This document shows positions 28,313 through 57,400 of a DNA stretch of 64,000 bases, one piece after another. A program made the position numbers and the translations under genes. Numbering within the stretch: position 1 is the stretch's first letter; the number at the start of each line of letters is the position of its first letter. The DNA is from Kofleriaceae bacterium (GTDB lineage: Bacteria; Myxococcota_A; Polyangia; Haliangiales; Haliangiaceae): contig JABTUH010000016.1 of the NCBI GenBank assembly GCA_015075455.1, positions 1 to 64,000 on the forward strand, in the 5' to 3' direction. Below the pieces are notes generated by a model. That model had not been told where the DNA came from and did not search any database. It worked only from the letters and a program-made list of their open reading frames with translations.

Positions 28313-28619
28313 GCGAGCGACGACGGCGCTGCGATCGTGGCGCCACGCCGCGCCGCTGGCGGTCGGGGGCGCGCAGGCCGGCGCCTCGCCCGGCCACGGC
28401 ACGCGCGGCGCGCGCGCTCGCGCTGGCAGCCGCCGGCGAGGGACGAGCGCGGCGGCGAGGCGGCGGCCGCGGCGCGGGTGGCGAGCGCGCGGTGGTGAGG
28501 GTCGAGGCGGGGCGGGTCACGGCGCGTCGGCGAGCGGCGGTTCCAGCCCGGATCGCGCGCTCGGGTTCGGATCGGGTCGGGCTCGGATCGATCCGCTCAC
28601 CCGCGCCGCCTTCACCGAC

Positions 28620-29700
28620 CGCGGTCGAGCCGCGCGGAAACCGAACGGCCAGCGCAGTGGGCGCGGGCGCCCCGGTCGACGCCGCGCGGCCCCGCGCCGA
28701 CATCGGCGCGGCCCCGCGCGACCGGCGACGGCGAGCGCGCATCTCCGCTCGGCCCGAACCAGCCGCGCGAGCGCCAGCGAGGGCGTGTCGAAGGCCGACA
28801 CGCCGCGGGCCCCGCGCCGACACGCCGCGGCGGCGCTTCGCCGACTGCGCCGCGGCGCCGCCGTCGCGCGCTCGACGCGAGCTCATCTCCGCTCGGCCTG
28901 AGCGCGCGAGCGCCAGCGAGGGCGTGTCGGCGCGGCCGACACGCCGCGGCCCCGCGCCGACACGCCGCGGCGCCGCGCGCCGACACGCCGCGGCGGCTCA
29001 TCATCTCCGCTCGGCGCTGGAGCCGCCCGACCGCCAGCGAGGGCGTGCACGGTCGGCCGCCGACACGCTGCAGCCCGCGCCGGCGACACCGCCGCGGCCC
29101 GCGCGCGACCGAACGGCGAGCTCCATCTCCGCTCGGCCTGAGCCGCCTGAGCGCCAGCGAGGGCGCGGTCGAAGCCGACACGCGCGCGTCGCCGCGCCGA
29201 CGCGCCGCGGCCCCCGCGCGACCGAACGGCGAGTCCATCCCTCCGCTCGGCAGCTGAGCGCATCGCCGCGGCGCCAGCGCGGCGCGTGTCGAAGGCCGCC
29301 ACGCCGCGGCCGCCGCGCCGACACGCCGCGGCCCGCGCGACCGAACGGCGAGCCGATCTCCGCTCGCTCGGCGCTGCTGCCGCCCGAGCGCCAGCGCGGG
29401 CGTGTCGAAGGCCGACACGCGCGCGGCCCGCGCGCCGACACGCCGCGGCCCCGCGCGACCGAACGGCGAGCGCGATCTCCGCTCGGCCGGAGCCGCCCGA
29501 GCGCCAGCGAGGGCGTGATCGCGCCGACGCGCGCGCTGACGCGCGCGCCGCGCTGCCGCCGCGGCCCCGCGCGACCGAACGCCGAGCCCATCTCTCCGCT
29601 CGCCCTGCTACGCCGCCCGAGCGCGGCCAGGGCGCGGCGCGAGCGCCGACGCCGCGCGGCCGCGCGCGCGCTGCGGGAGCGCGGTACGGCTCCGAGACCG
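28620..29700. repeat. Array of about 9 degenerate tandem repeats of about 112-132 bp, each containing a conserved hairpin
   Basis: Unit consensus is ATCTCCGCTCGGCC-(10-20 variable)-GAGCGCCAGCGAGGGCGTGTCGAAGGCCGACACGCCGCGGCCCCGCGCCGACACGCCGCGGCCCCGCGCGACCGAACGGCGAG. Clear copies start at 28741, 28885, 29003, 29125, 29237, 29355, 29475 and 29589, with a partial copy at 28620. The core CGTGTCG-aaggc-CGACACG is a 7-bp-stem inverted repeat. All six frames translate to Arg/Ala noise. Confidence 0.8.
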
Positions 29701-29859
29701 ACGGCGGGGGCCGGCCTCGGACAGTGCTACGCGCAGCCGGGGCGTCGTCGACGGTCACGACGTGGCGCCGTCGTCGCCGCGCAGGCGGCGCGCTCGCAGC
29801 ACCGCGGCCCACCGCCGGCGCCAGGGTGCGCTCGCCGTCGTCGACGCTCGGCGATCACG

Positions 29860-34398
<4,539 letters not shown>

Positions 34399-34402
<4 letters not shown>

Positions 34403-35108
34403 CGCACCGCGCCCGCGCCGCCGCGGCTACTCGCCGCCATCGCTGCCGGGGCGGTGCGGCGCCGAGCTTGCCGATGCGCGGATCGCTCGCGGCCCTTGTC
34501 GTCGTCACCGAACAGGCGGATGCGCTGGCCAGCGCGGTTGTGGCCGATGGCGTAGACCACGCCGGCGACGCCGGAGATGGGCAGCACCACCATCAGCACC
34601 GGCATGAGCAGGAACATGGGGACGATCTTGGCCACGATGCTGGCGACGATCAGGTACATCGCCGCCGCGGGATGGTCTCGCGCGCGCAGGCGCCGGCGTA
34701 GAGCCAGCCCAGGGGCCCGAAGAAGAACGACAGCCCGCCCGACACCAGCCACGACTTGCCGCGCCCGACCTCTCGCGCGGCTTCGTCAGCTCGAGGTGCG
34801 CGGCGTCGCTGGCCAGCGCAGCGCGCGGCAGCGCGGTCTCGAGGTCGCCGCCGCGATCGCGCCCGCGCCCGCCCTCGGTCTCGCGCCCGGCCCTTGCGCG
34901 CCTTGCCGGTGACGATCGCCGCCTGCCGCTCGCGCAGCTCGTCGCGCTCGGCCTGCTGGCGCGCCGCTCGCGCCGCGCCGGCCCGGGCTCGGCCTCGGCG
35001 CGCACCCGACGCGCGGGCGACGTCCGCGGCGCTTGCCTCGGCCGCCAGCGCGTCCAGGCGGGCGCGCAGCTCGTCATCGTCGTCGGGCACGGCCCGAACT
35101 ATGCGCAT
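34399..35108 (-). CDS. Membrane protein with TM2 / PspC-like segment (apparent frameshift near 34650)
   Basis: ...GKSWLVSGGLSFFFGPLGWLYAGA in one frame, then AAAMYLIVASIVAKIVPMFLLMPVLMVVLPISGVAGVVYAIGHNRAGQRIRLFGDDDKGRE in a frame offset by one base. The N-terminal Ala/Arg-rich 100 codons are doubtful. Confidence 0.4.
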
Positions 35109-35470
35109 GATCTCTCCGTGCGCGTCGCCCGCGCTCGCTCGCCTCGCCCTGGGCCTGTCGCTCGGCCTCGCCGGCGGCCTCGCCGGCTGCGGCGCGGACC
35201 TCCGGCCCGGCCGGGGCCCCAGCGCGCGCCGCACGCGCCGGCGAGCGCGCGCGCGCCGAGAAGGCGGCCTCGAGCGAGGAGCCGGTCGACGCCGCGCTGG
35301 CAAGCAAGTGGGGTGGCTGGCGCTACCAGGGCAGCCGCGACGAGTGCTTCTTCGTGGTCAAGCGCCGCTGCTTCACGCGAGCGCGAGGCCGCCTGCCGCG
35401 CCGCCAGCCGTGCGGCGCCAAGCGCTGCGTGGTCGAGGGCGGCGGCCCGCCACGGTGCGCTGCCAGTAGG
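35101..35470 (+). CDS. Possible small lipoprotein (frame-broken)
   Basis: MRMISPCASPALARLALGLSLGLAGGLAGCGADL is a signal peptide with lipobox. A second frame gives AEKAASSEEPVDAALASKWGGWRYQGSRDECFFVVKRRCF. Extent is uncertain. Confidence 0.3.
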
Positions 35471-35559
35471 AGCGCGGCGCGAAGCCGTGGATCGAGCTCG
35501 CGCGAGCCCCGGCGCCAGGCGGCGGCGAGCTGTCGCTCCACCGGCGCGCGCCGCGAGCT

Positions 35560-36155
35560 GGTGATCCGCGCGTCGACCGCCAGGAGCTCGCGTCGAGCCG
35601 GCGCCACGCGCTCGGAGGACGGCCGGCCGCGGTCGGCTGCGCCGGCGTCGGCGCCGGCGAATCGGTGCTGATCGGCGGCCTCGGCATGGGCTTCACCCTG
35701 CGCGCGGCGCTGGCGGCGCTGGCGGCTGCCGGCGCCCGGCTCGTCGTCGCCGAGCTGAGCGCGGCGGTGGTGGCGTGGAACCGCGAGCCGGCTCGGGCCC
35801 GAGGCGGCGGCGACGTTGCGCGATCCGCGGGTGCGGCTCGCGATCGCCGACGTCGCGGCGCTCCGGACCGAGCCCGGCGGCTCGACCGACGCGATCCTGC
35901 TCGACGTCGACAACAGCCCCCACGCCCTGACCCAGCCCAGCACCGCAGCCTGTCGACGCCGCCGCCGCCGGCCTCGCCGCCGCCCACCGCGCCCCTGCGC
36001 CCGGGCGGCCGGCTGGCGGTGTGGTCGGCGGAGCGCGCCCCGCCCTTCCGCGCCGCCTCACCGCCGCCGGCTTCGCGGTCGAGCTCCACGACGCGCGCGC
36101 CCGCCGCGGGCGCGGGGCCGGCCACACGATCTACGTCGGCCGCCGGCCGCGCTAG
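35560..36155 (+). pseudogene. Spermidine-synthase-like (PABS / class I SAM-dependent) methyltransferase, fragments in three frames
   Basis: VLIGGLGMGFTLRAALAALAAAGARLVVAELSAAVVAWNREP (35665) / RDPRVRLAIADVAALRTEPGGSTDAILLDVDNSPHALTQPSTAA / LRPGGRLAVWSAERAP / RLTAAGFAVELHDARARRGRGAGHTIYVGRRPR* (stop about 36153). Confidence 0.5.
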
Positions 36156-36189
36156 CGCGGGCTGGCCGCGAGTCGCGGCGCCGCCGCCG

Positions 36190-37100
36190 GGCCTACGCCG
36201 GCGGCGCGCTTGCCGACGACCGCGGGGATGCGGACGCGCGGGCCGACGTGGACCGACAGCCGCTTGACGTTCTTGTAGAACTCGCCGTCGATGACCGGCT
36301 CGAGCGCGCGTCGGTGGTGGCCTCGAGCACCATCGCCCGGCACGGCCGGTCGAGGACGGCGCGGCGCGGGTCGCTGCGCGTCGCCGCGCGCCATGCGCGG
36401 CAGGTTGCGGGCCACCGCCAGCGGCGACGGCGTGCCGACGATGGCGTTGAGCAGGCCGGCCTGGTCGGCCTTGCCGAGGCGAACTTGAGCACGTTGCCCA
36501 GGTTGATCGACATCGAGGCGACGTGGATGCCGGTGTAGTCCTCCGCCCGGCAGGATCGGCGCCGTCGAGGTGATGCGGCGCCCCTGGTCCGGTTGAAGAT
36601 GTGGTCGGCGTAGCGGGCGAAGCGCTGCCCATGCGCGGACGTGGCGCAGGGGCGTCATCGCCACCGGCATCGACATCAGGTCCGGCCCACGACCTTCGCG
36701 ATCGTGCGCGGGTTGGGATCGTGGTCCTCGGTACTTGGAGAAGCGCGCGCCGGCCGACGCCACCGGCGGCCATCGCGCCCAAGCCGTAGGTGCGGCACGC
36801 TCGCCGCGTCGTCGGGGCCGACCTCGACGCCGTCGATCACCATCGAGTCGACCTCGGTCTCCAGCGCGACGCGGTGCCCCGACTCGATCTTGCGTGCGCA
36901 GCGTGGCGAGCAGCCCCTCGGCGCCGTCGCCCATGAGATGCCGCGATCGATGTTGGCGATGACGGATCTCGATCGTGCCGCCGTTGGTCGGCATGGTCGA
37001 GCGGCATCGTCACCGCATCGCTGGCCGGCGAACTCCTCCTCCGCCCAGCACCTCCAGCGCCCATGCGCAGCATCGCAGTGCGCAGGGCGCCGCGTCGCCG
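36190..37100 (-). CDS. Beta-hydroxyacid dehydrogenase family (HIBADH / 6PGDH-like NAD-binding), frame-broken
   Basis: MSINLGNVLKFAS... and ...ADQAGLLNAIVGTPSPLAVARNLPRMARGD (different frames) resemble the C-terminal helical domain of the 3-hydroxyisobutyrate dehydrogenase family. Upstream fragments VIANIDRGIS and SMVIDGVEVGPDDAA also fit. Extent is approximate. Confidence 0.35.
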
Positions 37101-37749
37101 CCGTCCGCCACGCCAGTAGCGCGCGCGCGCGCAGGCTCTCGCGCAGCACCGGCTTGATCGGCTCGACGCCGTGTGCGTCTCGTGGACCTCGCCCATCGTG
37201 CCGACGATGGATCGCAGGCGGCGCGCGCGGTCCGGCCGCCCTTGTTCTTGCGGCTGTTGCGTTGGTGATGACGCGCGATGCGCGCGATTTGCACTCCGTC
37301 TCGGACGCCGCGCCCCGGGTTGCACGTGCGTCCGGGCGCATCGACGCGGTGCGTACGCTACCGGAATCAAATGGCCGCGCCACGCCCTCCCTGCGAAGCC
37401 GGCGCGCGCCGGCGGCGGGCCAGCAGCCCTGGTGCGCGTCACGGCGCGTCCCGATGAAGCCTGGTCAGCGCGGCACGAGCACCGTCACCGGCGACGCGCG
37501 GCAGCGGCACGCGGAACGCGTTGGTGGCCACCGGCGCGAGCGCGGCGTCGGATCGATCGTCGCGGCGTCGCCGTCCAGCACCCAGCGCGTCGGCGGCGAC
37601 GAAGGTGCGCAGCGGCGCGGCGACGCGCACGCCGGCGGCGAGCGGCACCGTCGCCTTGCTGACGAGCACGATCACCTGGCGGGCGCCGTCGCGTCCGGCG
37701 TAGGCCGTCACCCGCTCGACGTCGCTGGTCGTCGCCGCGGCGCTGGTGG

Positions 37750-39400
37750 CGCCCGCCCGGCGCCCGCACCGTCGAAGCTGGTGCGAGATCCGCAGCCCGG
37801 CGCAGCCGGTGAAGCGCTCGCGCGCCGCCGCGGCGTCGAGCCAGATCGTCGCCGCCGCCACACCCGGCGCGGCCGAAGACGCGGAGCACGTCGGGGCTCA
37901 TCTGCGGTCGCGCGCGCGCCGCTGACGTGGTCGCGCCCGCCGAAGTTCCACTCGGTGAAGGCCAGGCGCGTGTCCGGGTAGTGGGCGGCGAGGTCCTCGC
38001 GCAGGGACGGCAGGAGGCGGATGGGCGCGTCGAGGACGTCGTTGCGATCCAGGAGTCCTCGCGGCAGCGCGGCGTCTGCACAGCGAGCCGCGCGGCGCCT
38101 GGCGCGCGGGCGGCCGCGCCCCGACCGTACGCCGCGTCGTCGCGCGATCGGACACCGTCGCCGCGGGCGCTCCGGGTACCAGGCGCCGCAGATCGAGGGT
38201 GGTCGACCAGGCCAGCGCGCCGGCGGCGGCGGTCTCGGCGGCGCCGCGGAGCTCGTCCAGGAAGTGCGGGATGAAGCGGCGACCGCCGGCGTCGGGCGCG
38301 CCCTGCAGGGTGGTGTAGCCGGCGTAGCCGTAGCCGCGACGACGCCGGACGGCGACCGCCGCGCCACGCGTCGCGACGCTGGCGCGGCGAAGCGGACGGT
38401 GCGCTCGACGACGCCAGCTCGCCGTAGGTCACCGGCGCCGGGTGGACGGCGGGGGTGCGTGCTCGACCGCTCGTCGCGCTCGAGCTCGTTGACACCAGCG
38501 ACACCAGCGCGCGGACGTCGCCCACCAGGCCGGCGCGCGAAGTCGACGCCTCGGTCCTCCGTAGACGCGTGTCGTCGCCGAGGTCGCGGGTGGCGCGCGC
38601 GGGCGCGCGCGCTTGCGCGCGACGTTGGCGAAGTTCGCGGGTGCTCAGGTAGTTGCTGCTCGAGTTGCGCACGTCGCCGACGCGCTGCCGCGTCGGCGGG
38701 CGATCGCGTCGCCGTCGCAGCGCGCGGCGTCGGTCGGCGGCGACGTGATCGATGATCGGGCACGGTGATGATGGCGGCGGTGCCGCGGGCGCGGGCGTCG
38801 CCGAGGGCGCGCGGAAGGCTCGGCGCGTCCGGCGGCGGCGACCCGGGCGCGCCGAGCAGGCCGTCGTTCTGGTGGCATGTTCGGCTCCTCGCCGGCGTTC
38901 GACGCGTTGTTCTCCCCGTTGTAGGCGCGGTCAGGCGGTTGCCGCCGCCGGCGCGCACCAGCCGCGGACGGTCGCGGGCCACGTCGGCGCCGCCGTTGAG
39001 CTGCCGCGCGCGAGCGGCGAGATCGGCAGCCGCGCGGTGTCGGTGCGGACGTCGATCGCGACGTCGCGGCGAGCGCGATCGCCGGGCTCGACGAGCCGGC
39101 CGAGCCCGCCGTCGCCCCCGCCCGCGTCGCCGCCGTCCCCGCCGCCACAGCCGCCGAGCCCGACGCCGAGGCCGACGCGCCGAGCTCCGAGCGCGAGGGG
39201 ACGATCGTCGCGCGGCGGACGAAGGCGGGCGGAGGGGCGGGCGGCGCGCCGGCCGAGGATACGCTGGATCGGCTGCTGCGGCCGCGCGCCCGCGCCGCCG
39301 CGCGGACGGACGCGTCGCCGCCCGCTCGTGCGGCCCGCCGCACCTCGCACCCGCGCCGCTGGCGCGCGCGCGAATCGCCGCGCGCGGGCACGTGACGTTC
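37750..39400 (-). CDS. Probable clan GH-A TIM-barrel glycoside hydrolase, frame-broken
   Basis: GLLDRNDVLDAPIRLLPSLREDLAAHYPDTRLAFTEWNFGGRDHVSGA (around 37930-38080) has a GH-A-type nucleophile motif (FTEWN). The rest is split across frames. Boundaries are rough. Confidence 0.3.
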
Positions 39401-39499
39401 GCTCGCGGATCCCGCGCACGGCTTGCGTCGGCGCGCGACCGTCGCTGTTTGCCCTGCATGCCTTGCGCGCCGCGCGCCCCGAGGAGGTCAGATGCGCAC

Positions 39500-41408: not shown

Positions 41409-41410
41409 AT

Positions 41411-41458
41411 GTTCATTCTCCTGACAGTATATGCGCGAGATTTTGTCCTATCTCCCGA
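41411..41458. promoter_or_regulatory. AT-rich divergent promoter with direct repeats TCTCCTGACAG / TCTCCCGACAG upstream of hmgA
   Basis: TTCTCCTGACAGTATATGCGCGAGATTTTGTCCTATCTCCCGACAGG is the only AT-rich stretch within kilobases. The two 11-bp direct repeats lie 24 bp apart, between the 41408 minus-strand start and the hmgA start. Confidence 0.3.
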
Positions 41459-42535: not shown

Positions 42536-42639
42536 GATCGACACCCGCCGCCCGCTGCGCCCGTCGCGGCGGCGGCGACGCGCCATCGAGCGCCCCGACT
42601 ACTGGAAGGCTGGCGGGAGGAGACGCCGCCCGTGACGCA

Positions 42640-45354: not shown

Positions 45355-45799
45355 CGGCGCCGAGGCCGCGGCGAGCGTCGCGCGCCGGCGATGCGGCATC
45401 ACCGCCCGGGCGTCGGTCGGCGGCGTCAGTCCGCCGCCGGCACGCGCAGCCCTCGACCTCCAGCCACGCGAGCTCCGGCGCGCGCTCGCCGTCGCTGGTC
45501 AGCTCGACCCGGTACTGCAGGTAGCCGGTGGCTCGACGGCCCGGCGGCGTCGCGCCGCTGCCGTCGGTGAGCGGCGCCGACCACGGCTCGGCCAGGCACT
45601 CGGCCGCCGCCGCATCGTCCGCACCCGCACCGCCACCCCGCCGTCGGGCGGCGATCAGGCGGGCGCCGAACCGCACGGCGTCGAGCGCGGTCACGCCGTC
45701 GCCCAGGTCGCGGACCAGCGAGGTGTACGCGGCCGTCCGCGCCACCTGCTCCGCCGCCCGCCGGCCAGGTGCACCGCGAGCTGGACGTCCTGCAGCGTG

Positions 45800-47305
45800 C
45801 CGGTGTTGCCGGTGACGTTGTCGGTCACCCGCACGGTCCAGGTGCCGGCCGCCGGCAGGTCCGCGGACTCGGTCGGGTCGCGAGCGGGCGCGCGCGTGCG
45901 CGTCGCCACCGTGCCTGTCCGAGTTGTCGCGCAGGAGCGCGCGTTGCCGCCGGGGTGGATCAGCCGGGAGCTCGAGATCGGCGATGCGGTCCGGTTGACG
46001 GTGACGATCACATCACCTCGCGCACGGTCGCCCCCGGCAGCCCGCCCGCCGCTCGACCTTGGCCTCGGCCTCGCCGTTGTCGGGCACCGGGTAGTCGATC
46101 GGGTCGAACGCGGTCTCGAGCCGCCGCCGCCGCGGCTCGAGCGGGCGCAGCCGGGACGCCGGCAGCTCGCCGGTCAGCCCGGGGGCGGGGCCGCCGGCGC
46201 ACCCGCGCGCCTCATGCGGGCGTTGCCGTTGTTCTCGTTGTGGTCGAGGACGAGATCGTTCCAGCGCGCGACCAGCTCGACGTCGACCGTGCGATCCGCG
46301 CGGCCCCGAGAAGAACCGTCGTCGCTCACCCGCTCGCCGTTGACGCCAGAGGCGGTGGCCGTCGTCGGACTCGAGCGCGGACGCGATAGGTCCCGGCCGC
46401 GATCGCGCAGAACTGCCCCGACCAGCGCAGCGACCAGCTCGGATCGCCGGGGCCGCGTGCGGCCGAGCGTGTGGCGCGCCGGCGCCGGCCGCTCGAAGCT
46501 GGCGTCGACCAGCGGCGCCGTCGCGAGATCGTCCGCTCCGGCAGGCGCTGGAAGACGGTGGGTCCCACGCCCGGCCAGCACCGTCCCTCGCAGGTGATCG
46601 ACGCGGGCGGCGCGGCGCGCGGCCCGGCGAGCGGGACCGGCGTGGGGCTCGTCCTGCCGGATAGAGCTGGACGTCGAAGCGCGCGCGGCGCGCCGATGCC
46701 CTCGACCACCGCCAGCCGGATCGGTGCCAGCGCCTCGGTGGCGGCGGTGAACGTCCCGGTGCCGCGCCGCGATCGCGCGCGTTGACCACCCGGGTGAAGG
46801 CGCCGCCGGCGGGGCGACGCTCGACGAACCCGGTGTCGTCGGCGTCGACGACGAACGTGGTCGCGCCGGCGTCGAGTCGGCCACCTCGCCCTCGGCCCAG
46901 TAGGTCGGATCAGGTGTCGCCGGAGTCGAGGCCGACGCCGACCGGATCGCCGACGAGCGGCCAGGCCACGCCCGTTGTCCCGCCGGCGGCCGCCCGCTGC
47001 GGACGTCGGTCCAGGTCGCGGCGTCGGCCTCGGTGAAGCGCTGGGTGTTGGCGGCGTCGCGCGATCAGGCCGCCGGCGTGGTAGGCGGCCGGCGCCAGCG
47101 CGCCCCACGGCTCGATCACGAGCCCGTCGCGGACGGCGCCGACCACCGCGAAGTGCTCGAGCGAGTCGTCGCGGACGACGACGATCCGGTTGCCGGCGTC
47201 GTCGCGTCCGGCGTCGACCTCGACCCCCCCGCGCGCGCCGACGGCGAACGAGCAAGCCGCGGTCAGGGCCGCCAGCGTCCACGCGCCCGCCCCGCGCTGC
47301 GCCAC
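45800..47305 (-). CDS. Secreted hypothetical protein (frame-broken)
   Basis: ATG 47305 opens [82 protein letters not shown] (signal peptide plus sensible sequence). Downstream fragments include [49 protein letters not shown] and [24 protein letters not shown]. Confidence 0.3.
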
Positions 47306-47498
47306 CGCGACGCGACAGGCGACATGTCCGCCATTCTCGCGCGCGAGCCCCGCCCGGTGACAGCTGGCGAATGCGCGTCACGATCTGGCCGGCGACCGGC
47401 GGTGAGCGCGCTCACAGCCCGCGGACCGCGGCGATCGACCCGCCGACGTCGGGCAGGCCATCGGGCCGGCCATCGGGCCGGCCGTCGGGCAGCGCCGA

Positions 47499-50400
47499 TC
47501 AGGCCAGCTCGTCGAGGAACTGCTGGGCCTCGGCGAAGGCGGGATCCTCGCGCAGCGCCGATCTTGCGGCAGCGCGGCCGGCCGTCGGTTGCCGCGGGCG
47601 TGCTCGATCTGGCCTCCGCAGTCGCGCCATCGGCCGCGTGATCGGCGGTTGCGGGTTGTCCATGAGCGTGATCGCGCGCAGGGGCTTGAGCGCCAGCTCG
47701 TAGTCGCCGATCTCGGTCGCGAGCTGGGCCAGCTCGGCGGCGATGATCGCGCCGTTCTTGCGATCGACGTCGCGCGACGCCTTCGGCGGCCAGCCGATCT
47801 GGCCGTCGCGGTCGCCCAGCATGCGGCGGCGACCCGGCTCATCGCGCTACTGCATCGCGCGCCAGCTCGGGGTCCGCACGCTTCTGGGCGGCGATCGACG
47901 CCTCGAGCGCCGCCGCCGCCTTCCTCGGTGCGGCCGGAGCCGATGAGGACGTCGACGTGCAGCATCGCGGTCAGGTGGTCGTCGGCGCCGCTCGGCGGCC
48001 TTGCCGGCCGGCACCGCCGCCGCCGCCGCGTCGCCGGCGGCGAGGAGCGCTCGGCGGCGCGCTTGTAGGCGCCGCGAACCGCTCGTCGACGGCGGTGCCG
48101 TGATCGGCATCGGCCATCAGGATCGCGGCCAGCGCCTGCTCGCGGTGCGCGCCCGCGGCCGCCGGTACTGCTCGCGCAGCTGTCCGCCGGATGGCCTCGG
48201 CCGCCGGTTGCACCTGCGGTCGGCATCTCCAGCACGCCGATGGCGTCGGCGGCGGGCTTGCCGGCGCCCGCCGCCGCGTCGGCGGCCGTCGCGCGCGCGG
48301 CCTGGGCCTGGGCCTCGCCCTCGACGATGTAGGCCGGCCCGCGCCGGGTGCAGGCCGCGATGACGGCGTCCAGTGCTCGATGCTGGCGTCCATGTCGCGC
48401 AGGAGGTAGAGCGGATCGGGATCGCTCGGCGACCGCTCGATCCAGCCGACCAGGAGGTCGCGGGCGCGCTCGAGCTCGCCGTGCTCGAACAGGAGCTGGG
48501 CCAGGCGCAGGGTGGCGGACGGCGCTCGCTGGCGAGGTCGCCGGCGGCCTCGGCCCGCGCCCGCCGGCGCTCGCTCGGCCGTCGCCGAGCGCGCTCGCCA
48601 CCCGCGGCCGATCGAGCTGGTACGCCTCGTCGAGGTCGATGACGGCGGTGTCCTCCTGGCCGAGCGGCGGCTGGCGTCGGCTGGCGCGCAGGAGCAGGCG
48701 TCGACCCGGGGCGCGCCCTGGATACGCCGCGCTGTCGGGACCGTCGGCGCCGTCGAGGGCCTCGCCCAGCGAGGCCCGCCGCGCCGGCGTGATCGCCGCC
48801 GGCGGCCAGCGCCGCCGCCAGCTCCGACGACCGGGCCGGGACCTCGAGGCTGGCGGGCGCGCGCGGCGCGCAGGGCGTCGGCCGCGGCCAGGGGCTGGCC
48901 GAGGAAGCCGGTGAGATCGCCGCCGCCTCGCGCAGCCGATCGACCGCGACCGCGGCCTCGGTGGCGCGCGCGGCGTCGCCCTTCACGAGCTCGGCCAGCT
49001 CCAGCCACTGCTGGCTGTCGCGGTAGAACTTCTCGAGGCGGTCGCGATCGCCGTGTCGTCCACGCGGCCCGGTGCGCGGCGGCCAGCCGCGCTGGACGCC
49101 GGCCCAGTCCTCGGCCGCCTCGTAGGCGCCTGGCCAGGTGCCAGCGCAGGGCGGGCGCGGCCTCGGGGGTGCGCGACGCCGCGAGCAGGCGCCATGAGCT
49201 GGGCGGCCTCGCGCGGGTCGCGTCGTCGGCGGTGAGCGACGCCACCACCTGCGCGCAGCAGCTCGCGGTCGTCGGGCGCGATCCCGAGCGCGGTGCGGTA
49301 GACGCGGGCGGCGTTGCCACCGGTCGACTCGACCAGCGGGCCGAGGCGCGCCGCCACGTCGAGCGTGGACTCGCGATGACCGCGGCGCACGGCGTCGTCG
49401 GGCGCGCGCCCACAGCGGAACTCGGCCAGCCCGTCGTCGTCGCCGAGCGCGCGCAGGGTGCGCGGCGAGCAGCGCCGCGGCCTCGAGGTCGTCGACGTCG
49501 TCCGCGAGGGCGTCGCGCAGGACGTCGGCCGCGTCGTGAGGCCGCGCGGCCTCGATCAGGTACGTGCGCGCGGGCGCGGCGCAGCGCGTTGCGCTCGCCC
49601 GGATCGACCAGGGCGGGCAGGGTCGACGGATCACGCTGGCCAGCCGGTCGCCGTCGCCCATCTCGCTCGGTAGAGCGCCACCAGCGGCGCCCACACCGCG
49701 CGGTCGCCGGCGGCGGCGCTCGCGCAGGAGCTCGTACATCTCGGCGGCCAGGCCGTGGGTGGCCGGGTCCTGGGCCGCGCGCGCCGCGACCTGGCCGATC
49801 ATCTCGGATCGCTCCTCGGCCGGCTCGGCCACGCCGATGACCTCGCAGACCAGCTCGCGAGCGGCGCCGCCAGGTCGCCGCTGGCGGCGCGGCGGCCGAT
49901 GAGGGCCAGCAGCGCCCACACCGCGCCGCCCAGGCCGTCGGCGAGCGACTCGCGGGCCGCCGTCACCGCCCGCTCGAGCAGGGCCTCGCCCGCGCCTCGT
50001 GACCGAGCTCGAGCGCGCGATCGCCGCCTCCCGCACCTGCGCCGGCGTGGCGCCGCGGGAGCCGCGCGCGCTTGTCGAGGAAGTCGAGCAGGAGCTCGCT
50101 GTCGCCGATCGTTGCGCGCGACGCGCTCGCGCGCAGCGCCATCACCCGGGCGTCGCCGGGATCGGTGGTCGAGGCGCCGCGCAGGACGCGCCTCGGCCTG
50201 GGCCCACCGCGGCTCGGCGGCGCCCGGCGCTCGATCGGCTCGACGCCCTGGAGCGCGGGCGCGCCGCGCGCGGGGTGGCGATGAAGATCTCCGCCAGACG
50301 GTAGAGCGCGTCGATCTGGGCCGGCGATGCCTCGCCGCCGTCGCTGCCGTCGAGCTGCGAGCCGCGCTGTCGAGCGCCCGCGCCTGCTGCTCGTCGTCGC

Positions 50401-53400
50401 CGACGCGCGCGGCGGCGATCGGGCCTGGGCGTAGTGCGGCCTCGGCCAGGCGGCGCCCAGCATCTCGACCCGGCGGTACAGCGCCAGCGCGCGCCCGGCA
50501 GATCGCCGGCGTCGTTCTCCAGCGCCTCGCCGGCGGCTGAGCAGGATCGCCGCCACCAGCGCCGCGGATCGTCACCGCGCCGCAGCCGCTCGACCACGGT
50601 CCGACCGCGTCGACGCCGAGGCGCGTGGCGCCGGCGCGCGCCGACATCGCGCGCCCGCCCGCCGGTCGCGGGATCGAGGCGGGCCGGGGCCTGGTTGATG
50701 GGCGCGATGATCGCGGCCAGCGCGTCGCCGGAGCGACCGAGCGGGCGTCGAGGACCTCGGCCATGTCGGCGTAGAGGCGAGCCTGGCTGGCGGCCTCGGG
50801 CGCGGCCGCCAGGCGCAGCTCGAGGACGCGCAGGAGCGTCTCGGCCTGGCCGTGGGCGATCAGGCTCCGCCGCATGCGGCGGACCTCGACGTCGGACTGG
50901 ACCGCGGCGTCGATCGCGCTCTCCAGCAGCTCCCGGGCCTGGGTGTCGTCGCCGTGGCCGGCGGCGAGCCGCGACAGCTCGAACAGCACCTCGCTCCTCG
51001 CCCGCGCGCGGCCTCGTCGTCGCCCGGCGGCTGGCGGCGGACCACCAGCAGGTCGCGCGCGCAGGCAGGCGCGCTCGGCGCTTGTCGTCCTGGCCGGCGG
51101 CGCGGCACAGCTCGGCCAGCTCGCGCTGGATGCGGGCGTTCGTTGACGTCCATCTTGGACGCCGCCTCCATCTCCGGCCAGCGCCTCGTCGTTCTTGCCC
51201 TCGGCGTGCGCGCGCCTTGGCCAGCTCGACGTGGAGCTGGGCGCGCTCGGGCGAGCGGCGGCGGCCGAAGGCTCGATGAGCTCGCCGAGGATGGTGCGGG
51301 CCTCGTCGAGGCGACCGGCGATGCGCAGGCCGACCGCGAGCTGGTCGCGCGCAGCTCCTTGTCGCCCGGGTCGAGGGCGAGCGCCTTCGCCAGGGCCGCG
51401 GATGGCCACGGCCGGCGCGTCGAGCTTGCCGGTGTAGATGGCGGCGGCCTCGCGGGCCGGGGCCGGGCCGCGGTCGTCGCGGCGAAGAAGCCGAGCGAGC
51501 GGGTGCGAGGTGGCGCGCCAGGGCTCCCACTGCTCGCCGTCGCGGTAGAGCTGGGCGAGGAGCGTGCGCAGCTCCAGCGCCGGCTCGCGATCGTCGAGCA
51601 CGCTCTCGATCGCGGCGATCGCGCGGTCGGGCTGGTGGGCGGCGAGGTGCGCGCGGGCGCGCTGGTCGACCACGGCCAGGCGCTCGGCGCCGCTCACCGT
51701 CGACAGCAGGCTCTCGAACCACGGCACGGCCTGGGCCGGCTGGCCGCGGTCGAGCTGGAGCCGGGCCAGCCCGCGGAACGGCTCCTGGGTCGGGGCCGGT
51801 CACGGTCCGGCGGTGGCGCGGCGATCGCGATCGCGCGCTCGAGCTCCCGATCGTCGCGCTCGGCGACGACGGCGAAGCGGGCCTGCGCCGGGCGGCGCGG
51901 GCGGCGTCGCCGGCGGCCTCGAGCGCTTGCCGGCCTGCTCCTCGAGCAGATCGGCGAGCGCCCGTGCTGGCCCTTGCCGGCATCTCGCGCGTGGTGGGCG
52001 GCGTCGATCGCCTCGCGTCGTGGCCGGGCTGATCGGCGGGGTCGCGGCGATCAGCGCCTCGTAGCGGCCGCCGGTCTCCTCGACCACGCCGACCAGGCGG
52101 GCGATGTCGAGGCGGAGCTCGAGCCGGCGCGCCGGATCGGGCTCGAGCCCGAGCTGGACGTGGCGCAGGCCGAGCAGCTCGGCGTGGCGGCGCTCGGCCT
52201 CGAGGAGGCGCGCCGAGGCTGGCGATGACCTCGGATCGCCGGCGGCGCTCGGACAGGTCGTGGCGCCGCGGTACATGTCGATGGCGGCGGCGTTGTCGCG
52301 GAGCTCGCTGGACGCGATCGCCGCCGCCCGCATGCGCAGGTCGCGCCGGGTGTCGGCGTCGAACGGCAGCGGCGCGCCGACTCGGCGAGCGAGATCGACC
52401 GCGATCTGGGGGCGGCCGGCGCGCGGCGCAGATCGACCAGGCCGTCGATCGCCCACCGCACCACCGCCTCGGCCGGCCGCGACGACTGGACCACGGCCGA
52501 GCCGCGCCACGCGCCGAGCGGCCCGCCCCAGCACCTGGCCGAGCGACCACCGACGCCTCGCGATCGCCGAGCCGGCTGGCGGTGTCGGCGGCCTCGACCA
52601 GGACGTCTGATCGCGCGGATCGGCGTCGGACAGGCGGCGCAGGACGTCGAGGAGCTGCGCGCTCGGCCCGCCGCCGCGCAGGAGCTCGGCGAGCGCGCGC
52701 AGGGTGTCGGCGCGATCGCCGCCGGCGGCCAGCGACTTCTTGAAGGCGGCGACCGCGGCGTCGCGATCGCCGCGCCGGTCGCGGTGCCAGACCGCGAGCC
52801 GCGCCCAGAGCTGGGCCGCCACCGCCGATCGCGGCATGCCGGCCAGCCCCGCCGCCTGCTCGAGGGCGGCGGCGGCGCGGCGTCGAGCGCGCGCTCGCCG
52901 GCCTGGTCGTAGATCGCGATCAGCCCGTCGTCGAGGCGCTCGCTTGGCCGCGCGGCGTAGCCGGCGAGCGCGGTCGCCGCGTCGTCCCAGCGAGCGGCCT
53001 CGGTCGCCAGGCGCACCACATGCGGCGGCCGCCGCCTGGCGGGCGCGGTCGAGCCGGCGGAACACGGTCAGGTACTCGTCGAGCGCGCGCCGCTGGCGTC
53101 GCGGAGCGGGTCAGCGAGCAGCTCCGCGCGGACCAGGCGCAGGCGCGCGGCGTGACCGCCGGGGTCGTCGGCCAGGGCGGCGATGGCGGCGGCCAGCGCC
53201 CGATCGCGCCACCGCCAGGCGCTCGGTGCGGGCGGCGAGGTCGCGGAGCTGGCCCTCCATGCACGCCGCAACCGCGGGGCGCCAGCGGCGGAAGGCCGCG
53301 TCGCCAGGTTGTCGTCGGCGCCGGCCAGGTCGCCGGTGTGCTGCTGCTGGATCGAAGGCGGCCTCGCGCAGGAGCGCCAGCCGGGTGCGATCGTCGGCGG

Positions 53401-55470
53401 CGTCGAGCCAGACGCGCGCCGGCAGGAGCCAGGGCCCCGGCCCAGTCCTGGTTCTCGCGGTAGCTGGTGGCCAGGGCGTCGGCGGCGTGCCTTGCAGTGC
53501 TCAGGCGCGTCGAGGAGGGTGAGCAGCCCGGCCGCTGGCCTGCTCGTTGACCGGATCGATCGCGAGCGCGGCGCGGAAGGCCGCCAGCGCGCGCGCGCCG
53601 GCTCGCCGAGGTGGGTGGCCAGCGCCTCGCCCAGGCGGTTGAGGCGGCGGGTGGTGCGCTCGACGTCCGTGCCGCTGGTGCGCTCGGCAGGTCGGCGAGC
53701 TCGCGCCAGCGCCCGCCCCCCGGCCAGCAGGTCGGTCAGCGCGCCGACGGTCTCGGGGTCGTCCCCGAACTCGCGCTGCACCCGCTGCCAGGCGGCGATC
53801 GCCTGCTCGGCGTCGTCGATGCGATCGCGATAGACGACGGCGATGCGGGTGGCGAGGTCGGCGCGCTTGCGCGCCGCCGAGACGTCGCGGCTCGCCCGCT
53901 GGTCGAGGGCGACCACCAGCTCGCGCCAGCGCGCCGCGGTCTCGAGCAGGAGGATCGCCGAGTCGAGGGCGCCGAGATCCGACGGATCGCGGTCGATGCG
54001 CTGGCGCCACAGCGCCAGCGCCTTGTCGGTCATCTCGCCCAGGCTCTCGGCCAGGCGGGCGGCCTCGCCGATCACGCCGCGGCGCGTGGTCGCCGACGGC
54101 TCGAGGGTGGTCAGGCGCTCGAGGATGGCGAAGCGCTCGCGCCGTCCGCCGGTCGACCCGCAGTACAGCTCCGACAGCCGCCGGCACACCGGGAGCTGCT
54201 CCTTGTCGCCGGCGCCCGGCAGCTCGAGCGCGCGCTGGTAGAGCTCGATCCGCGCCCTCGTCCGGATCGTCGAGCAGATCGAGGCGGGTGCGGGCGGCCT
54301 CGGACAGGAGCTCGACCTTGCGCGCCGGCATGACGGCGTGCTCGGCGGCGGCGGCGACGCCTGCGGCGATAGCGGCCGGTAGCCGCCGGACCGCTGCGCG
54401 AGCTGGCGCAGCTTCTCCTGGGTGACCGACGAGTCCGGGGTCAGGGCCAGGAGCGCGGCGTAGTGATCCATGGCCGCGGCGTCGTCGTCGAGCTCGGCCA
54501 GGCGGGCGCCGGCCTCCTCGCGCAGGGCCTGGCTGCCGGCCGGATCGAGCTCGATCACGCGCTCGAGGACGCGGATGACCTCGCGGCGCCGGTTCGAGGC
54601 GTCGTAGTGAGCGCGCAGGAACTCGAGGGCGGCCTCGCGCTCGCGCGGCTGGAGTGTGGCTGCGCCTCGATGATGCGCTCCAGCAGGCGGCAGGCCTCGC
54701 GGTCATCCTCGGCGGTGGCGAGCAGCGGGCGGGCCGCGGCCAGCGCTCGCGCCGAGTCCTGAGGTTGTCGCCGAGGTAGCAGGCGGCGATGCGGGCCCGG
54801 CTCCGCGCGCGCTCGCTGGCGTTCTGGGCGTCGAGCCGGCTCTCCCACAGCGCGATCAGGTCGGCCCAGCGCTCGTAGCGCTCGAGCAGGCGCTCGAGCG
54901 ACGCGCCCGAGCTGGGCGTCGTCGGGCGTGAGCGGCAGCAGGCGCTGCAGGTAGACGATCGCCTTCTCGGGCTGGTTGGCGACGTCCTTGGTGAGCTGGG
55001 CGGCCTCGCGCAGGGAGCTTGATGCGGCGGCCCGGGTCGCTTGCCCGCGGTGAGCGCGCGGTCGTAGAGGCGAGCAGGTCGCTCCACCGCTCGTCCTGGG
55101 TGTAGAGGACGCTGAGCCGGCCCAGGGCCGACTCCGAGTGCGGCGCCAGGTCGGGGACCGTGGTGAGCAGGCCCTCGGCGACCTTGGGCTCGTCGCCGAG
55201 ACCACTCGTCGCAGAACGCGCGCGGCGCGATCGCCGATCATCTCGACCACCTGCGGGTCGAGCCCTTCTGCCTGAGGACCTCGCGGAACAGCGCGACGAC
55301 CTCGTCGGGTGCGTCGTGCTCGCGGGCCAGCTCCTCGACCGCCTCCCAGGCGGTGACCGAGTGGGGCGCGCTCTTGACGTCGGCGGCGGCGGACTCGAAG
55401 ACGCTCTTGGCCGCGATCCCTCGTGGGGGCTCGACCCCGCCGCCGGCACCTCCCCGTCGAGGTGCGGGCG
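47499..55470 (-). pseudogene. Giant TPR-repeat protein(s), about 8 kb of TPR-like helical repeats scattered over all three minus-strand frames
   Basis: Successive overlapping minus-strand ORFs (47499-47822, 47971-49413, 48117-50036, 49799-51727, 50142-52550, 51800-53065, 53068-54558, 53501-55087, 54555-55817, 55238-55912) all contain TPR-like segments. Examples are LAQLYRDGEQWEPW, IDMYRGATT, ELYQRALELPG and [27 protein letters not shown]. The N-terminal sensible stretch is GIAAKSVFESAAADVKSAPHSVTAWEAVEELAREHDAPDEVVALFREVLRQKG. Stop at 47499-47501. Confidence 0.5.
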
Positions 55471-55674: not shown

Positions 55675-56432
55675 ATGACGGTGCTGTTCGAGGGCGACGA
55701 GCTGGTGGCGGTGGCCTGCCACCGGGGCTCGCCGTCGTCCCCGAGCGCGGCCGACCCGGCCGGCTCGCTCCGCCACCGGCTCGAGGCCGCGCGCGGGAGC
55801 CGCTGTGGGTGGCGCACCGCATCGACAAGGACACCTCGGGGTCGTGGTGCTGGCGCGGACGGCGGCCGCCCACCGCTGGCTCAACGACGCGTTCGCCGCC
55901 CGCCGGGTGCACAAGCGCTACGTCGCGTTCGCGGCCGGCGACCTGCCGGGGACGCGCACGGTCGACGTCCCGCTGGTCGAGGCCCGCCGCGGAAAGGCCC
56001 GACCGGCGGCGCCCGGGGCGCGCGGCAAGCCGTCCGTGACCCGGTTCGTCGCCACCGCGCGCTGGCGGCGCCCGCCCGGCGCATCTCCGCCGACCCGGCG
56101 ACCGCGGCGGTCACCTGCCTCGACGCCTTCCCCGAGACCGGGGCCGCCATCATCAGATTCGCGTCCACCTGCGCAGCCTGGAGGCCCTGATCGTGCTCGA
56201 CGGCCGCTCGACGGCAAGCGGACCTTGCGCGGCATCGCTGACCGGCGCGCGCGTGCACCCGCCTCGCCCTGCACGCGGCGCGCGTCTCGAGCTCACCCGC
56301 CCCGACGGCCGCGCCGCTCGCGATCGAGATCGCCGCTGCCGCCCGATCTGGTCGCGCTCGCCGCCTGGCTCGACGCGACGCGGCGACGGCAACCCGAGGG
56401 CGCCTGACGATGCGAGCTGGCTGCTCGGCTGA
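55675..56432 (+). pseudogene. RluA-family pseudouridine synthase, frame-broken with an in-frame 3-nt duplication
   Basis: MTVLFEGDELVAVA / HRIDKDTSGVVVLARTAAAHRWLNDAFAARRVHKRYVAFAAGDLPG..TVDVPLVEA / ETGAAIIRFAS... should read ETGRxHQIRVHL; the observed catcatcag versus catcag suggests a duplication. HQIRVHLRSLEALIVLDG follows in the next frame. Confidence 0.55.
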
Positions 56433-56439
56433 TCGTGTG

Positions 56440-57400
56440 CGGAGGCTGCGCCGGGCGCCTGGCCGTGGTCCCGGGCCGCGCGCCGCTGGTGGCGTGCGGC
56501 GCTGCGCGCGCGCGCGACCCGCGTGCTCGGCGGCCTCGCGGTGGTGGTGCCCGGCGCACGGCGCACCTCGCCGGCCGCCAACCGCGCCGCGCAGGCGTGG
56601 CGTCCTGGCCGTGAGACGCGCGGCGGCCGGCGACGCGCCGCCGGTCGTGGCCGTCGTCGACGCCTTGGCGCGCGCTGGCGCGCGCGCGCCGCGCAGCAGG
56701 CGAGCGCCTTGCGCCTGGTCGGCGACGACTGGCGTGGCGGCCGCGTCGCGCGCCCGCGTCCGACTGCCGCCTCGGCGCCGCGACGCCGACGCCGGCGCCC
56801 GCGGACTGCGCCGCGCGCGCGCCGCTCGTCCGCCTACGCTGACGCCGCCGGCGATCGCGCGCGGTCGATCGGGGCCGTGCTCGCGCGCGCGCTGCAGACC
56901 GGCGCCACGCGCACGCTCCAGGTGGAGGCGGCGCCGGCGCCGCGCGTCGAGCGCCCGCCGCCTGGCCGCGGCCCCGGCGTCGGCGCGCGCCCGTGGTCGC
57001 CGATCTGTCGCGTTGCGCGCCGCGCTGCGCGCGCCGGCGCGTCGCCCGGCCGCCGGCCGGCGCCGGCGCGCCGCGATCGCCGCCGCGTGCTCGACGCCGA
57101 GGCCCTGGCCCTGGCCCGCGCTCGGTCGACGCCGTGGTCGCCGTCGAGATCGTCGATCTGCTGGCCGCGCCCGAGCGCCTCCTGCGCGCCGCCGCCCGCG
57201 CCCTGCGCCCGCGCGGTCGCCTGATCCTGGCCACGCCCGACCCGTCGCTGGGCACCGGCGACGACGCCCGCCTGCGGGCGCTGCTCGCCGCGGAGGGCTG
57301 GCGCGTGGTCGCCGACCGCGCCGGCTTGCCCTGGATCCGCGTCCACGGCCCCCGCCACGTCCAGGTCTACTTCGTCGACGTGCTCGCGGTCGTCCGCTGA
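56440..57400 (+). pseudogene. RlmA-like class I SAM-dependent methyltransferase (Cys-rich zinc-ribbon-like N-terminus, methyltransferase core), frame-broken
   Basis: N-terminal CGGC...C..A. The C-terminal VDAVVAVEIVDLLAAPERLLRAAARALRPRGRLILATPDPSLGTG resembles the RlmA tail (DAIIRIYAP..ELARVVKPGGWVITATPGP). The end overlaps the convergent ATP-grasp gene by about 30 bp. Confidence 0.4.

What the first reader, a model, noticed from the sequence alone, without database searches (positions are those of the whole stretch)
28400..57400. 29-kb block in which every recognisable gene is split across reading frames, flanked by clean sequence
Upstream of about 28.4 kb and downstream of about 57.4 kb, genes are single open frames with occasional isolated breaks. 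Between those points all 16 or more genes I could recognise need two to three frame switches, some within 60 bp. This includes housekeeping genes (Lhr, RluA, RlmA-like, HmgA, HppD, crotonase). Examples: ggcagcggcGCaagaccctgg in the Lhr Walker A motif; catcatcag for catcag in RluA. Indels often fall in G/C runs, and several are compensated locally so the frame recovers. Three explanations are possible: a stretch of much lower consensus accuracy (low coverage, or a different read type or contig joined in); a chimeric join; or a genuinely decaying region. Any function inferred in this block is provisional.
Basis: seen in the sequence. Interest (0 to 1): 0.5.

Follow-up and report, generated by a model that had tools for sequence, protein, structure and literature searches.

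The report
Uncorrected long-read block, not pseudogenes
The 29-kb stretch of "broken" genes is an assembly artefact: raw-read-quality sequence with about one insertion or deletion every 40 bases, lying between accurately corrected flanks, while other assemblies of the same and sister strains carry all 17 genes intact, so it is a data-quality warning and not biology.

Summary
Its cause is sequence error, not gene decay. From 28,410 to 57,117 the codon-phase signal collapses. The flanks hold a single phase for 0.8-3 kb.

Independent short-read assemblies of the same strain show 0 differences over 57,118-63,544 and over about 23-28.4 kb. Inside the block the window has about 700 private indel events (about 1 per 40 bp) plus 2-5% substitutions. 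Two same-strain assemblies agree with each other 100.000% against the window. Four sister-strain assemblies are collinear with it, and all 17 genes are intact in them. Reference-versus-reference controls give 0 frame-changing indels.

Window-private substitutions ignore codon position (39/78/26). Natural substitutions give 7/5/42 (p = 2e-14). A 112-nt tandem unit has identical copies in a same-strain short-read contig. In the window each copy has its own errors, at 7-20%.

Small patches of the same noise sit on GC peaks in the flanks. Another noisy stretch starts at 63,545, where short-read contigs end.

Best explanation: a Kofleriaceae metagenome contig with a long-read backbone, left uncorrected here. 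This is not a chimera and not pseudogenes. Interest is low.

The parts
28410..57117 (.). Error-rich block of 28.7 kb with raw-read-like noise. It has about 700 indel events, 2-5% substitutions and local bursts up to about 20%. The window is about 2.2% longer than the true sequence here.
   Evidence: First and last private differences against same-strain contigs L001, L003-5, L006, L007 and L008. Per-kb profile. Phase collapse.
28589..29683 (.). Tandem array of a 112-nt unit, about 9 copies, in the intergenic region between LNS2 and Lhr. The left border of the block lies just before it. All short-read contigs stop here.
   Evidence: TRF gives a period of 113-121, inflated by insertions. The clean unit has 2 copies at 100% identity at the end of L001. 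The window copies carry 7-20% copy-specific errors. The array is absent in the sister strains.
27494..28520 (-). LNS2/PITM-like gene (339-342 aa in references). Only its 5' end, from 28,410, is damaged, by 4 frame-changing indels.
29727..34402 (-). Lhr helicase (1,485-1,486 aa intact in L015/L016). The window has 128 frame-changing indels.
34427..36154 (.). Three hypothetical genes: 212 aa (-) at 34,427-35,090, 113 aa (+) at 35,118-35,469 and 219 aa (+) at 35,479-36,154. They carry 13, 9 and 11 frame-changing indels.
36202..37285 (-). DAGK_cat-family kinase (350 aa in references). 30 frame-changing indels.
37465..39249 (-). Glycoside hydrolase family 44 (561-566 aa in references). 53-55 frame-changing indels. 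The noise is highest here, at about 11%.
39492..40500 (+). AurF-family diiron oxygenase gene (320 aa intact in L051). It is strain-variable: absent in L015-L019. 39 frame-changing indels.
40504..41416 (-). LysR-type regulator (290 aa). 20 frame-changing indels.
41485..43748 (+). HmgA (370 aa; 41,485-42,635) and HppD (364-371 aa; 42,632-43,748), the homogentisate pathway. 32 and 14 frame-changing indels.
43796..44568 (+). Hypothetical gene (241-251 aa). 15 frame-changing indels.
44556..45354 (-). Enoyl-CoA hydratase / crotonase (261 aa). 14 frame-changing indels.
45426..47325 (-). PA14 / P_proprotein / PPC-domain protein (615 aa). 49 frame-changing indels.
47499..55414 (-). Giant TPR protein (2,584 aa). 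Its length is conserved in more than 100 relatives. About 180 frame-changing indels.
55675..56407 (+). Pseudouridine synthase, RluA-like (242-268 aa). 12 frame-changing indels.
56410..57400 (+). Class I methyltransferase (314 aa). 37 frame-changing indels, all at or below 57,117. It includes the noisiest burst, 56,520-57,000, at about 20% error.
57118..63544 (.). Clean right flank with 0 differences to L006, L007, L008 and L009. It nearly coincides with one short-read contig (L008: 57,036-63,478).
63545..64000 (.). Second noisy stretch, running to the window end. It is deletion-biased, with C-run contractions and a collapsed CCCGAR hexamer repeat. It starts where short-read contigs L007 and L008 end.
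2781..22654 (.). Seven small patches of the same noise in the 'clean' left flank: 2,781-2,995; 4,094-4,198; 8,594-8,634; 11,687-11,990; 16,955-17,181; 20,427-20,502; 22,451-22,654. Each lies on a local GC peak of 80-90%.

Best explanation
The window comes from a metagenome-derived contig of a Kofleriaceae (Myxococcota) bacterium, about 77% G+C. Its backbone is single-molecule long-read sequence, and it was made accurate only where short-read data could correct it.

From 28,410 to 57,117 that correction did not happen. What is recorded there is raw or nearly raw long-read sequence with 5-20% error, in which insertions outnumber substitutions and substitutions outnumber deletions. Every one of the 17 genes is therefore shredded by a frame-changing indel about every 40 bp. 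The real genome has intact genes at this locus.

Shown:
- The differences are private to this record.
- They are indel-dominated and stochastic.
- They show no filtering by selection.
- The locus is collinear with intact copies.
- Noise outside the block sits at GC peaks and at repeats where short-read contigs end.

Inferred:
- The pipeline. It could be a hybrid assembly that filled the space between short-read contigs with long-read sequence. It could also be a long-read contig supported here by one or very few reads, too erroneous for short reads to align and polish.
- The sequencing platform.
For: (1) Flanks are identical to independent assemblies from at least 5 samples. L002 and L009 are 100% identical. 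L006, L007 and L008 show 0 differences over 57,118-63,544. L001 shows 0 differences over 23,000-28,409.

(2) Inside the block the window differs from same-strain L006 and L007 by 1.9% substitutions, 2.3% inserted bases and 0.6% deleted bases. L006 and L007 are 100.000% identical to each other over 15,037 bp.

(3) Genuine strain divergence looks quite different. L010 versus L007 has 95 substitutions and 3 gap openings in 8.5 kb. L015 versus L016 has 96 substitutions and 3 gap openings in 20 kb. No gene in either comparison has a frame-changing indel. Window versus reference has 9-128 per gene.

(4) All genes are intact in L006/L007, L010-L019 and L051. The TPR protein keeps about 2,580-2,600 aa in more than 100 relatives.

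(5) Codon-position test in the TPR gene: private substitutions fall 39/78/26 and natural ones 7/5/42, contingency p = 2e-14.

(6) Reference-free test: the 112-nt tandem unit has 100%-identical copies in same-strain L001. In the window 8 copies carry 7-20% errors, and 42 of 67 error positions occur in one copy only.

(7) The seven small noisy patches in the flanks all lie on GC peaks of 80-90%, against a 95th percentile of 0.83 for 200-bp windows of the flanks.

(8) Noise borders lie near short-read contig ends and repeats. On the left, 28,410 compares with contig ends at 28,582-28,584 and the tandem array. On the right, 57,117 compares with the L008 end at 57,036. The second stretch starts at 63,545, against L008 and L007 ends at 63,478 and 63,523 in a hexamer repeat.

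(9) Gene-fragmenting indels and the failure of short-read polishing in difficult regions are documented properties of long-read assemblies (PMC12007338, PMC8812927, PMC9262707).
Against: No reads, coverage or assembly metadata were available, and the source record was not found in the two collections scanned. The pipeline is therefore inferred.

The block as a whole is not GC-extreme (78.1% against 75.4%). GC dropout explains the small patches but not why 29 kb stayed uncorrected.

The right border at 57,117 does not coincide with a repeat.

The error spectrum fits neither textbook profile. Insertions exceed deletions, insertions avoid homopolymers (9 against 47 expected), and A/T bases are miscalled 4 times more often than G/C. 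The textbook profiles are homopolymer deletions for polished Nanopore and homopolymer-type insertions for PacBio CLR (from my own knowledge). The platform is therefore undetermined.

For 29.7-48.3 kb only sister-strain references (about 98.5-99.3% identical) and L051 were available. Substitution error rates there include about 1% real divergence.
Confidence: 0.95

Rival explanations
1. Genuine decay: a 29-kb tract of real pseudogenes in the sampled population, from relaxed selection or a localized hypermutation process.
For: Every gene in the block is frame-broken, and the borders are sharp. Without reads, real lesions cannot be formally excluded.
Against: The flanks show zero substitutions against the same strain, while the block differs by 5-20%. 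About 700 indels at roughly 1 per 40 bp means 9-180 lesions per gene, far beyond what inactivation needs. Indels are about as frequent as substitutions. Substitutions peak at codon position 2. Identical tandem-repeat copies each carry different lesions. The block includes a TPR gene conserved in more than 100 relatives, along with Lhr, HmgA and HppD, which are all intact in same-strain and sister assemblies. The same noise appears in small GC-peak patches and at a repeat outside the block.
Confidence: 0.015
2. Chimeric join or recombination: the block comes from a different organism or a divergent strain, spliced between the flanks.
For: Sharp borders. Sister strains at 98.5-99.3% identity exist and differ structurally, in the tandem array and the AurF gene.
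Against: Gene order is collinear from the left-flank genes (LVIVD, LNS2) through Lhr and on to TPR in L015/L016. It is also collinear from TPR through the right-flank genes in L006/L007. A divergent strain would differ by third-position substitutions with intact ORFs, as L010, L015 and L016 do, not by frame-breaking indels. The window shares the strain-specific tandem array with same-strain L001, and it shares the AurF insertion with L051.
Confidence: 0.01
3. Non-sequencing corruption: the noise was introduced in silico, by simulated errors, a faulty consensus or scaffolding step, or file handling, and not by uncorrected read error.
For: The spectrum is atypical for either long-read platform. 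Insertions avoid homopolymers, and the noise is biased toward G/C. The source record could not be located.
Against: Small patches sit exactly on GC peaks, and noisy stretches begin at repeats where real short-read contigs end. Noise intensity varies along the block, from 5% to 11% to 20%, as it does along real reads. Repeat copies show recurrent context-specific hot spots in addition to random errors. These are properties of a real sequencing and assembly pipeline.
Confidence: 0.025

Closest known systems
Gene-fragmenting indel errors in long-read (Nanopore or PacBio CLR) assemblies, and their incomplete removal by short-read polishing (PMC12007338 Kastor; PMC8812927 Polypolish; PMC9262707)
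   Same: Indels create frameshifts and false pseudogenes. Errors persist where short reads cannot be placed, at repeats, GC extremes and low coverage. Comparison with related intact genes reveals them.
   Different: Residual error in a polished assembly is usually well under 1% and dominated by homopolymers. Here a contiguous 28.7-kb tract keeps raw-read-level error of 5-20%, with insertions that avoid homopolymers, next to flanks that are perfect.
Hybrid scaffolding or gap filling with long-read sequence between short-read contigs (a property of short-read-first hybrid assemblers, from general knowledge)
   Same: A mosaic of perfect segments that match short-read contigs, for example 57,118-63,544 against L008 at 57,036-63,478. 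Noisy segments begin at repeats that break short-read assemblies.
   Different: Other samples assemble most of the block from short reads alone (L006 is a 67-kb contig). A 29-kb 'gap' therefore needs a sample-specific reason, such as low short-read depth or a strain-mixture tangle, which I could not test.
Genuine pseudogene-rich regions in decaying genomes (reductive evolution in, for example, Mycobacterium leprae or Sodalis; general knowledge)
   Same: Many adjacent genes have disrupted reading frames.
   Different: Real decay gives one to a few lesions per gene, shared by all isolates of the lineage, together with divergence in the flanks. Here there are tens to hundreds of private lesions per gene, identical flanks and intact copies in the same strain.

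Membership tests
Uncorrected long-read sequencing error (assembly artefact) | Differences are private to this record; independent assemblies of the same strain agree with one another against it | tested here: met
   L006 versus L007 is 100.000% over 15,037 bp. Both differ from the window at the same positions within 48.3-57.1 kb. L001 and L003-5 agree at 28.41-28.58 kb.
Uncorrected long-read sequencing error (assembly artefact) | Indel-dominated differences with no signature of selection | tested here: met
   There are about as many indel events as substitutions. Each gene has 9-128 frame-changing indels, against 0 in reference-versus-reference controls. Codon positions are 39/78/26 against the natural 7/5/42, p = 2e-14.
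Uncorrected long-read sequencing error (assembly artefact) | Errors are stochastic: truly identical repeat copies carry different errors | tested here: met
   The 112-nt unit is 100% identical between copies in L001. Eight window copies have 7-20% error, mostly at copy-specific positions.
Uncorrected long-read sequencing error (assembly artefact) | Noise is located where short-read support is expected to fail (repeats, GC extremes, contig ends) | tested here: inconclusive
   This is met for the 7 small patches (GC 80-90%), for the left border (tandem array) and for the 63,545 stretch (hexamer repeat). The right border at 57,117 and the block interior have no such feature. Only the L008 contig end at 57,036 lies nearby.
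Uncorrected long-read sequencing error (assembly artefact) | Read-level evidence: low depth or a different read type across the block | not testable with these tools
   No reads or assembly metadata were available. The source record was not found.
Genuine pseudogene tract / genome decay | Lesions are present in independent assemblies of the same lineage | tested here: not met
   Same-strain and sister-strain assemblies have all 17 genes intact.
Genuine pseudogene tract / genome decay | Divergence of the block is commensurate with divergence of the flanks | tested here: not met
   There are 0 differences in 6.4 kb of right flank and in about 5.4 kb of left flank, against 5-20% in the block.
Chimeric assembly join | Break of synteny at the borders relative to related genomes | tested here: not met
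   L015 and L016 run collinearly across the left border. L006, L007 and L008 run collinearly across the right border.
Programmed frameshifting / recoding | Frameshift sites are conserved in relatives | tested here: not met
   Relatives encode single uninterrupted ORFs.

The most novel reading that the evidence does not exclude
The block is a faithful record of real molecules. One possibility is a subpopulation, or extracellular or damaged DNA, in which a 29-kb tract bounded by a tandem array underwent extreme localized error-prone synthesis that generated indels and A/T-to-G/C changes. A long read captured it, and short reads from the dominant intact allele could not 'correct' it.
Probability: 0.01. 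Interest if true: 0.75.

Novelty: not a real feature. Interest (0 to 1): 0.05.

Why it matters
The finding matters only as quality control.

Any gene call, pseudogene count, completeness or contamination estimate, or functional inference made from 28,410-57,117 of this record would be wrong. The same applies to the small patches and to 63,545-64,000. An annotator would report about 17 false pseudogenes, including Lhr, HmgA/HppD and a conserved 2,584-aa TPR protein.

The true sequence is available from other assemblies and can replace the block: ERZ27309507 k141_185399, GCA_023382815.1 JAHDXB010000077.1, and GCA_900696455.1 CAADGB010000302.1.

The one thing only this noisy long-read tract reveals is that the 112-nt tandem array has about 9 copies. 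It also links two contigs of MAG GCA_023382815.1 (contigs 78 and 77) across that array.

Tried and rejected
(1) ORF listing was useless at 77% GC because long ORFs appear in all six frames. I replaced it with GC3 phase tracking.

(2) A protein search with the fragment 39,000-39,392(+) gave no hits. It was not a true frame, and it cost one of the three searches.

(3) Pfam on six-frame translations of 37.0-42.0 kb gave no hits. The genes there (GH44, AurF, LysR, HmgA) are too fragmented by indels to score, which shows how severe the noise is.

(4) Exact-match scans for a window-private 50-mer in the GTDB-representative genomes and in the JGI metagenomes found nothing. The source record and its assembly method remain unknown.

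(5) P0241, which is probably the same-strain GH44, was not retrievable. No same-strain reference was obtained for 29.7-48.3 kb, so sister strains and L051 were used instead.

(6) I considered and rejected the following:
- A duplication origin for the 1.2-kb window-only segment. It has no self-match and is a real AurF gene.
- GC dropout as the sole cause of the big block.
- A homopolymer-driven error model.
- DGR-like adenine mutagenesis. Indels and the 29-kb scale are incompatible with it.

(7) I could not assign the sequencing platform from the error spectrum.
Full report
**Observation.** The window is about 77% G+C, so ORF lists are uninformative: long ORFs occur in all six frames. I tracked the coding phase with a GC3 frame plot and with a 7-state Viterbi model trained on the flanks. 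Outside about 28.3-57.1 kb, single-phase segments run 0.8-3 kb. Inside, the phase signal breaks into pieces under 400 nt or is lost.

**Where the sequence comes from.** Exact-protein look-ups with flank genes found the same proteins in several places:
- MAG GCA_023382815.1, contigs JAHDXB010000078.1 and JAHDXB010000077.1;
- ENA assemblies ERZ27309505, ERZ27309507 and ERZ27309508;
- Logan assemblies of several SRA runs.

Names attached to homologues place the organism in the Kofleriaceae, Myxococcota. The window's own record was not found in the GTDB-representative genomes or in the JGI metagenomes.

**Same-strain comparison.**
- In the flanks the window is identical to these independent short-read assemblies. 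L002 and L009 are 100% identical. L006, L007 and L008 show 0 differences over 57,118-63,544. L001 shows 0 differences over 23,000-28,409.
- Inside the block the window differs from L006 and L007 by 20-40 positions per 500 bp.
- L006 and L007 are 100.000% identical to each other over 15,037 bp, so the differences are private to the window.
- The first private difference is at 28,410 and the last at 57,117.
- Over 48.3-56.5 kb the rates are 1.9% substitutions, 2.3% inserted bases and 0.6% deleted bases.
- There is a burst of about 20% error at 56,520-57,000.
- Error is about 11% around 37-41 kb against L051.

**References for the rest of the block.** I used the intact TPR and GH44 proteins to fetch sister-strain loci: L010-L019 and L046-L051. 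They come from GCA_014584455.1, GCA_900696455.1, ERZ3604704, GCA_013328875.1 and Logan runs.
- These are 98.5-99.8% identical to one another and to L007, and they differ almost only by substitutions. L010 versus L007 has 95 mismatches and 3 gap openings in 8.5 kb. L015 versus L016 has 96 mismatches and 3 gap openings in 20 kb.
- They are collinear with the window from the left-flank genes (LVIVD, LNS2) through Lhr to TPR. L006 and L007 continue from TPR into the right flank. There is therefore no chimeric join.
- All genes are intact in them.

**Per-gene damage.** Frame-changing indel events in the window:

| Gene | Frame-changing indels |
|---|---|
| Lhr | 128 |
| hyp212 | 13 |
| hyp113 | 9 |
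| hyp219 | 11 |
| DAGK | 30 |
| GH44 | 53-55 |
| AurF | 39 |
| LysR | 20 |
| HmgA | 32 |
| HppD | 14 |
| hyp251 | 15 |
| crotonase | 14 |
| PA14/P_proprotein | 49 |
| TPR | about 180 |
| pseudouridine synthase | 12 |
| methyltransferase | 37 |
| LNS2 (5' end only) | 4 |

The reference-versus-reference control gives 0 in every gene. Right-flank genes show 0 differences of any kind. Summed per kb, the block has about 700 indel events, or about 1 per 40 bp, continuous from border to border. Most switches are invisible by eye because they come too close together.

**Are the differences errors or mutations?** Three tests address this.
1. *Codon position.* In the TPR gene, natural substitutions (L007 versus L010) fall 7/5/42 on codon positions 1/2/3. 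Window-private substitutions fall 39/78/26, p = 2e-14. They peak at position 2, where A/T bases concentrate in a GC-rich genome, and A/T bases are miscalled about 4 times more often than G/C. No selection has filtered them.
2. *Reference-free repeat test.* The tandem array at 28,589-29,683 has a 112-nt unit whose copies are 100% identical in same-strain contig L001. In the window eight copies carry 7-20% errors. Of 67 error positions, 42 occur in a single copy, alongside a few context-specific hot spots. That is stochastic read noise.
3. *Identical flanks.* The flanks have had no time to diverge (0 substitutions), while the block differs by 5-20%.

**Error spectrum.**
- There are 136 insertion events of 1-7 nt and 51 deletion events.
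- Insertions avoid homopolymer extension: 9 observed against 47+-4 expected.
- Deletions are mildly enriched in homopolymers, 51% against 42%.
- G/C-run context is only weakly enriched, 25.7% against 17.5%.
- The window is 2.2% longer and 1% richer in GC than the truth.

This does not match the textbook residual-error profile of either long-read platform, so I leave the platform open.

**Pattern outside the block.**
- The 'clean' left flank holds seven patches of 40-300 bp with the same kind of noise. Every one lies on a local GC peak of 80-90%, where short-read coverage typically fails.
- A second noisy stretch begins at 63,545 and runs to the window end. It starts in a CCCGAR hexamer repeat where short-read contigs L007 and L008 stop.
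- The clean segment 57,118-63,544 nearly coincides with one short-read contig (L008, 57,036-63,478).
- The left border lies about 170 bp before the point where L003-L005 end, at the start of the tandem array.

The record is thus a mosaic. It is accurate where short-read sequence exists or aligns, and raw-read-like elsewhere.

**Explanation.** The backbone is long-read sequence, and short-read correction failed over the block. Two mechanisms fit: hybrid gap filling between short-read contigs, or a stretch supported by one or a few long reads that was too erroneous for short reads to align. This is a known class of artefact (PMC12007338, PMC8812927, PMC9262707). Why 29 kb rather than a few hundred bases stayed uncorrected is not established. 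GC alone does not explain it. Low long-read depth, a strain-mixture tangle, or a duplicated haplotig that causes multi-mapping are all candidates, and reads would be needed to test them.

The GC insertion in the Lhr Walker A codons (34,251-34,271) is confirmed against L016. The 'catcatcag' in RluA (56,148) is not an error, because the intact reference has the same 9-mer. The true lesion is a CC insertion about 10 nt away.

**Verdict.** The cause is an assembly or consensus artefact (confidence 0.95). Genuine decay and chimeric join are each at 0.01-0.02. The feature is not biological, and interest is low. The practical outcome is that gene calls in 28,410-57,117 should be ignored and the intact sequences from the listed assemblies used instead.

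Noticed in passing
window 28,589-29,683 (L001:12,581-12,804 for the clean unit): A strain-specific intergenic tandem array of a perfectly repeated 112-nt unit lies between the LNS2-like gene and Lhr. The noisy long-read tract suggests about 9 copies. The array is absent from the sister strains (L015/L016). Every short-read assembly breaks here, and it separates contigs 78 and 77 of MAG GCA_023382815.1. The unit contains two 22-nt sub-repeats (CCGACACGCCGCGGCCCCGCG) and a 16-nt inverted repeat. Its function is unknown.
   Followed up: partly
window 39,301-40,499: A strain-variable 1.2-kb insertion between GH44 and LysR encodes an AurF-family diiron oxygenase. The gene is intact at 320 aa in L051 (GCA_013328875.1) and absent in L015-L019 and L046-L050. 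The DNA is real, but the window's copy is as error-ridden as the rest of the block.
   Followed up: yes
window 63,545-64,000: A second noisy stretch runs to the window end. Unlike the main block it is deletion-biased (72 deleted bases, 0 inserted, against L006), with C-run contractions and a collapsed CCCGAR hexamer repeat. It starts where short-read contigs L007 and L008 end.
   Followed up: partly
window 2,781-2,995; 4,094-4,198; 8,594-8,634; 11,687-11,990; 16,955-17,181; 20,427-20,502; 22,451-22,654: Small patches of the same indel-rich noise lie in the otherwise perfect left flank. Each sits on a local GC peak of 80-90%. They will cause isolated false frameshifts in the genes there, for example the 895-aa gene at about 21.9-24.6 kb and the VIT/VWA gene around 17 kb.
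   Followed up: yes
window 47,499-55,414 (-): A giant TPR protein of 2,584 aa is conserved at nearly constant length (about 2,577-2,650 aa) and 60-83% identity in more than 100 Kofleriaceae and other Myxococcota assemblies. It always sits next to the pseudouridine synthase in the loci I saw. It is unnamed in most sources.
   Followed up: no
window ~11,992-14,529 (+) (L041:3,437-5,974): The left flank encodes an 845-aa protein with major-vault-protein domains (PF11978 MVP_shoulder, faint PF17795 Vault_3). It is a bacterial vault-protein-like gene.
   Followed up: no
window 48,299-57,117: The error spectrum is odd for a long-read platform. Insertions strongly avoid homopolymer extension (9 against 47 expected). 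A/T bases are miscalled or deleted about 4 times more often than G/C. The noise raises GC by 1%. I could not assign a platform or a basecaller from this.
   Followed up: partly
window 41,485-43,748 with 40,504-41,416: A homogentisate-pathway pair (HmgA and HppD) lies next to a divergently oriented LysR regulator, with a crotonase nearby. This is ordinary tyrosine/phenylalanine catabolism. The genes are intact in all the references that cover them.
   Followed up: no
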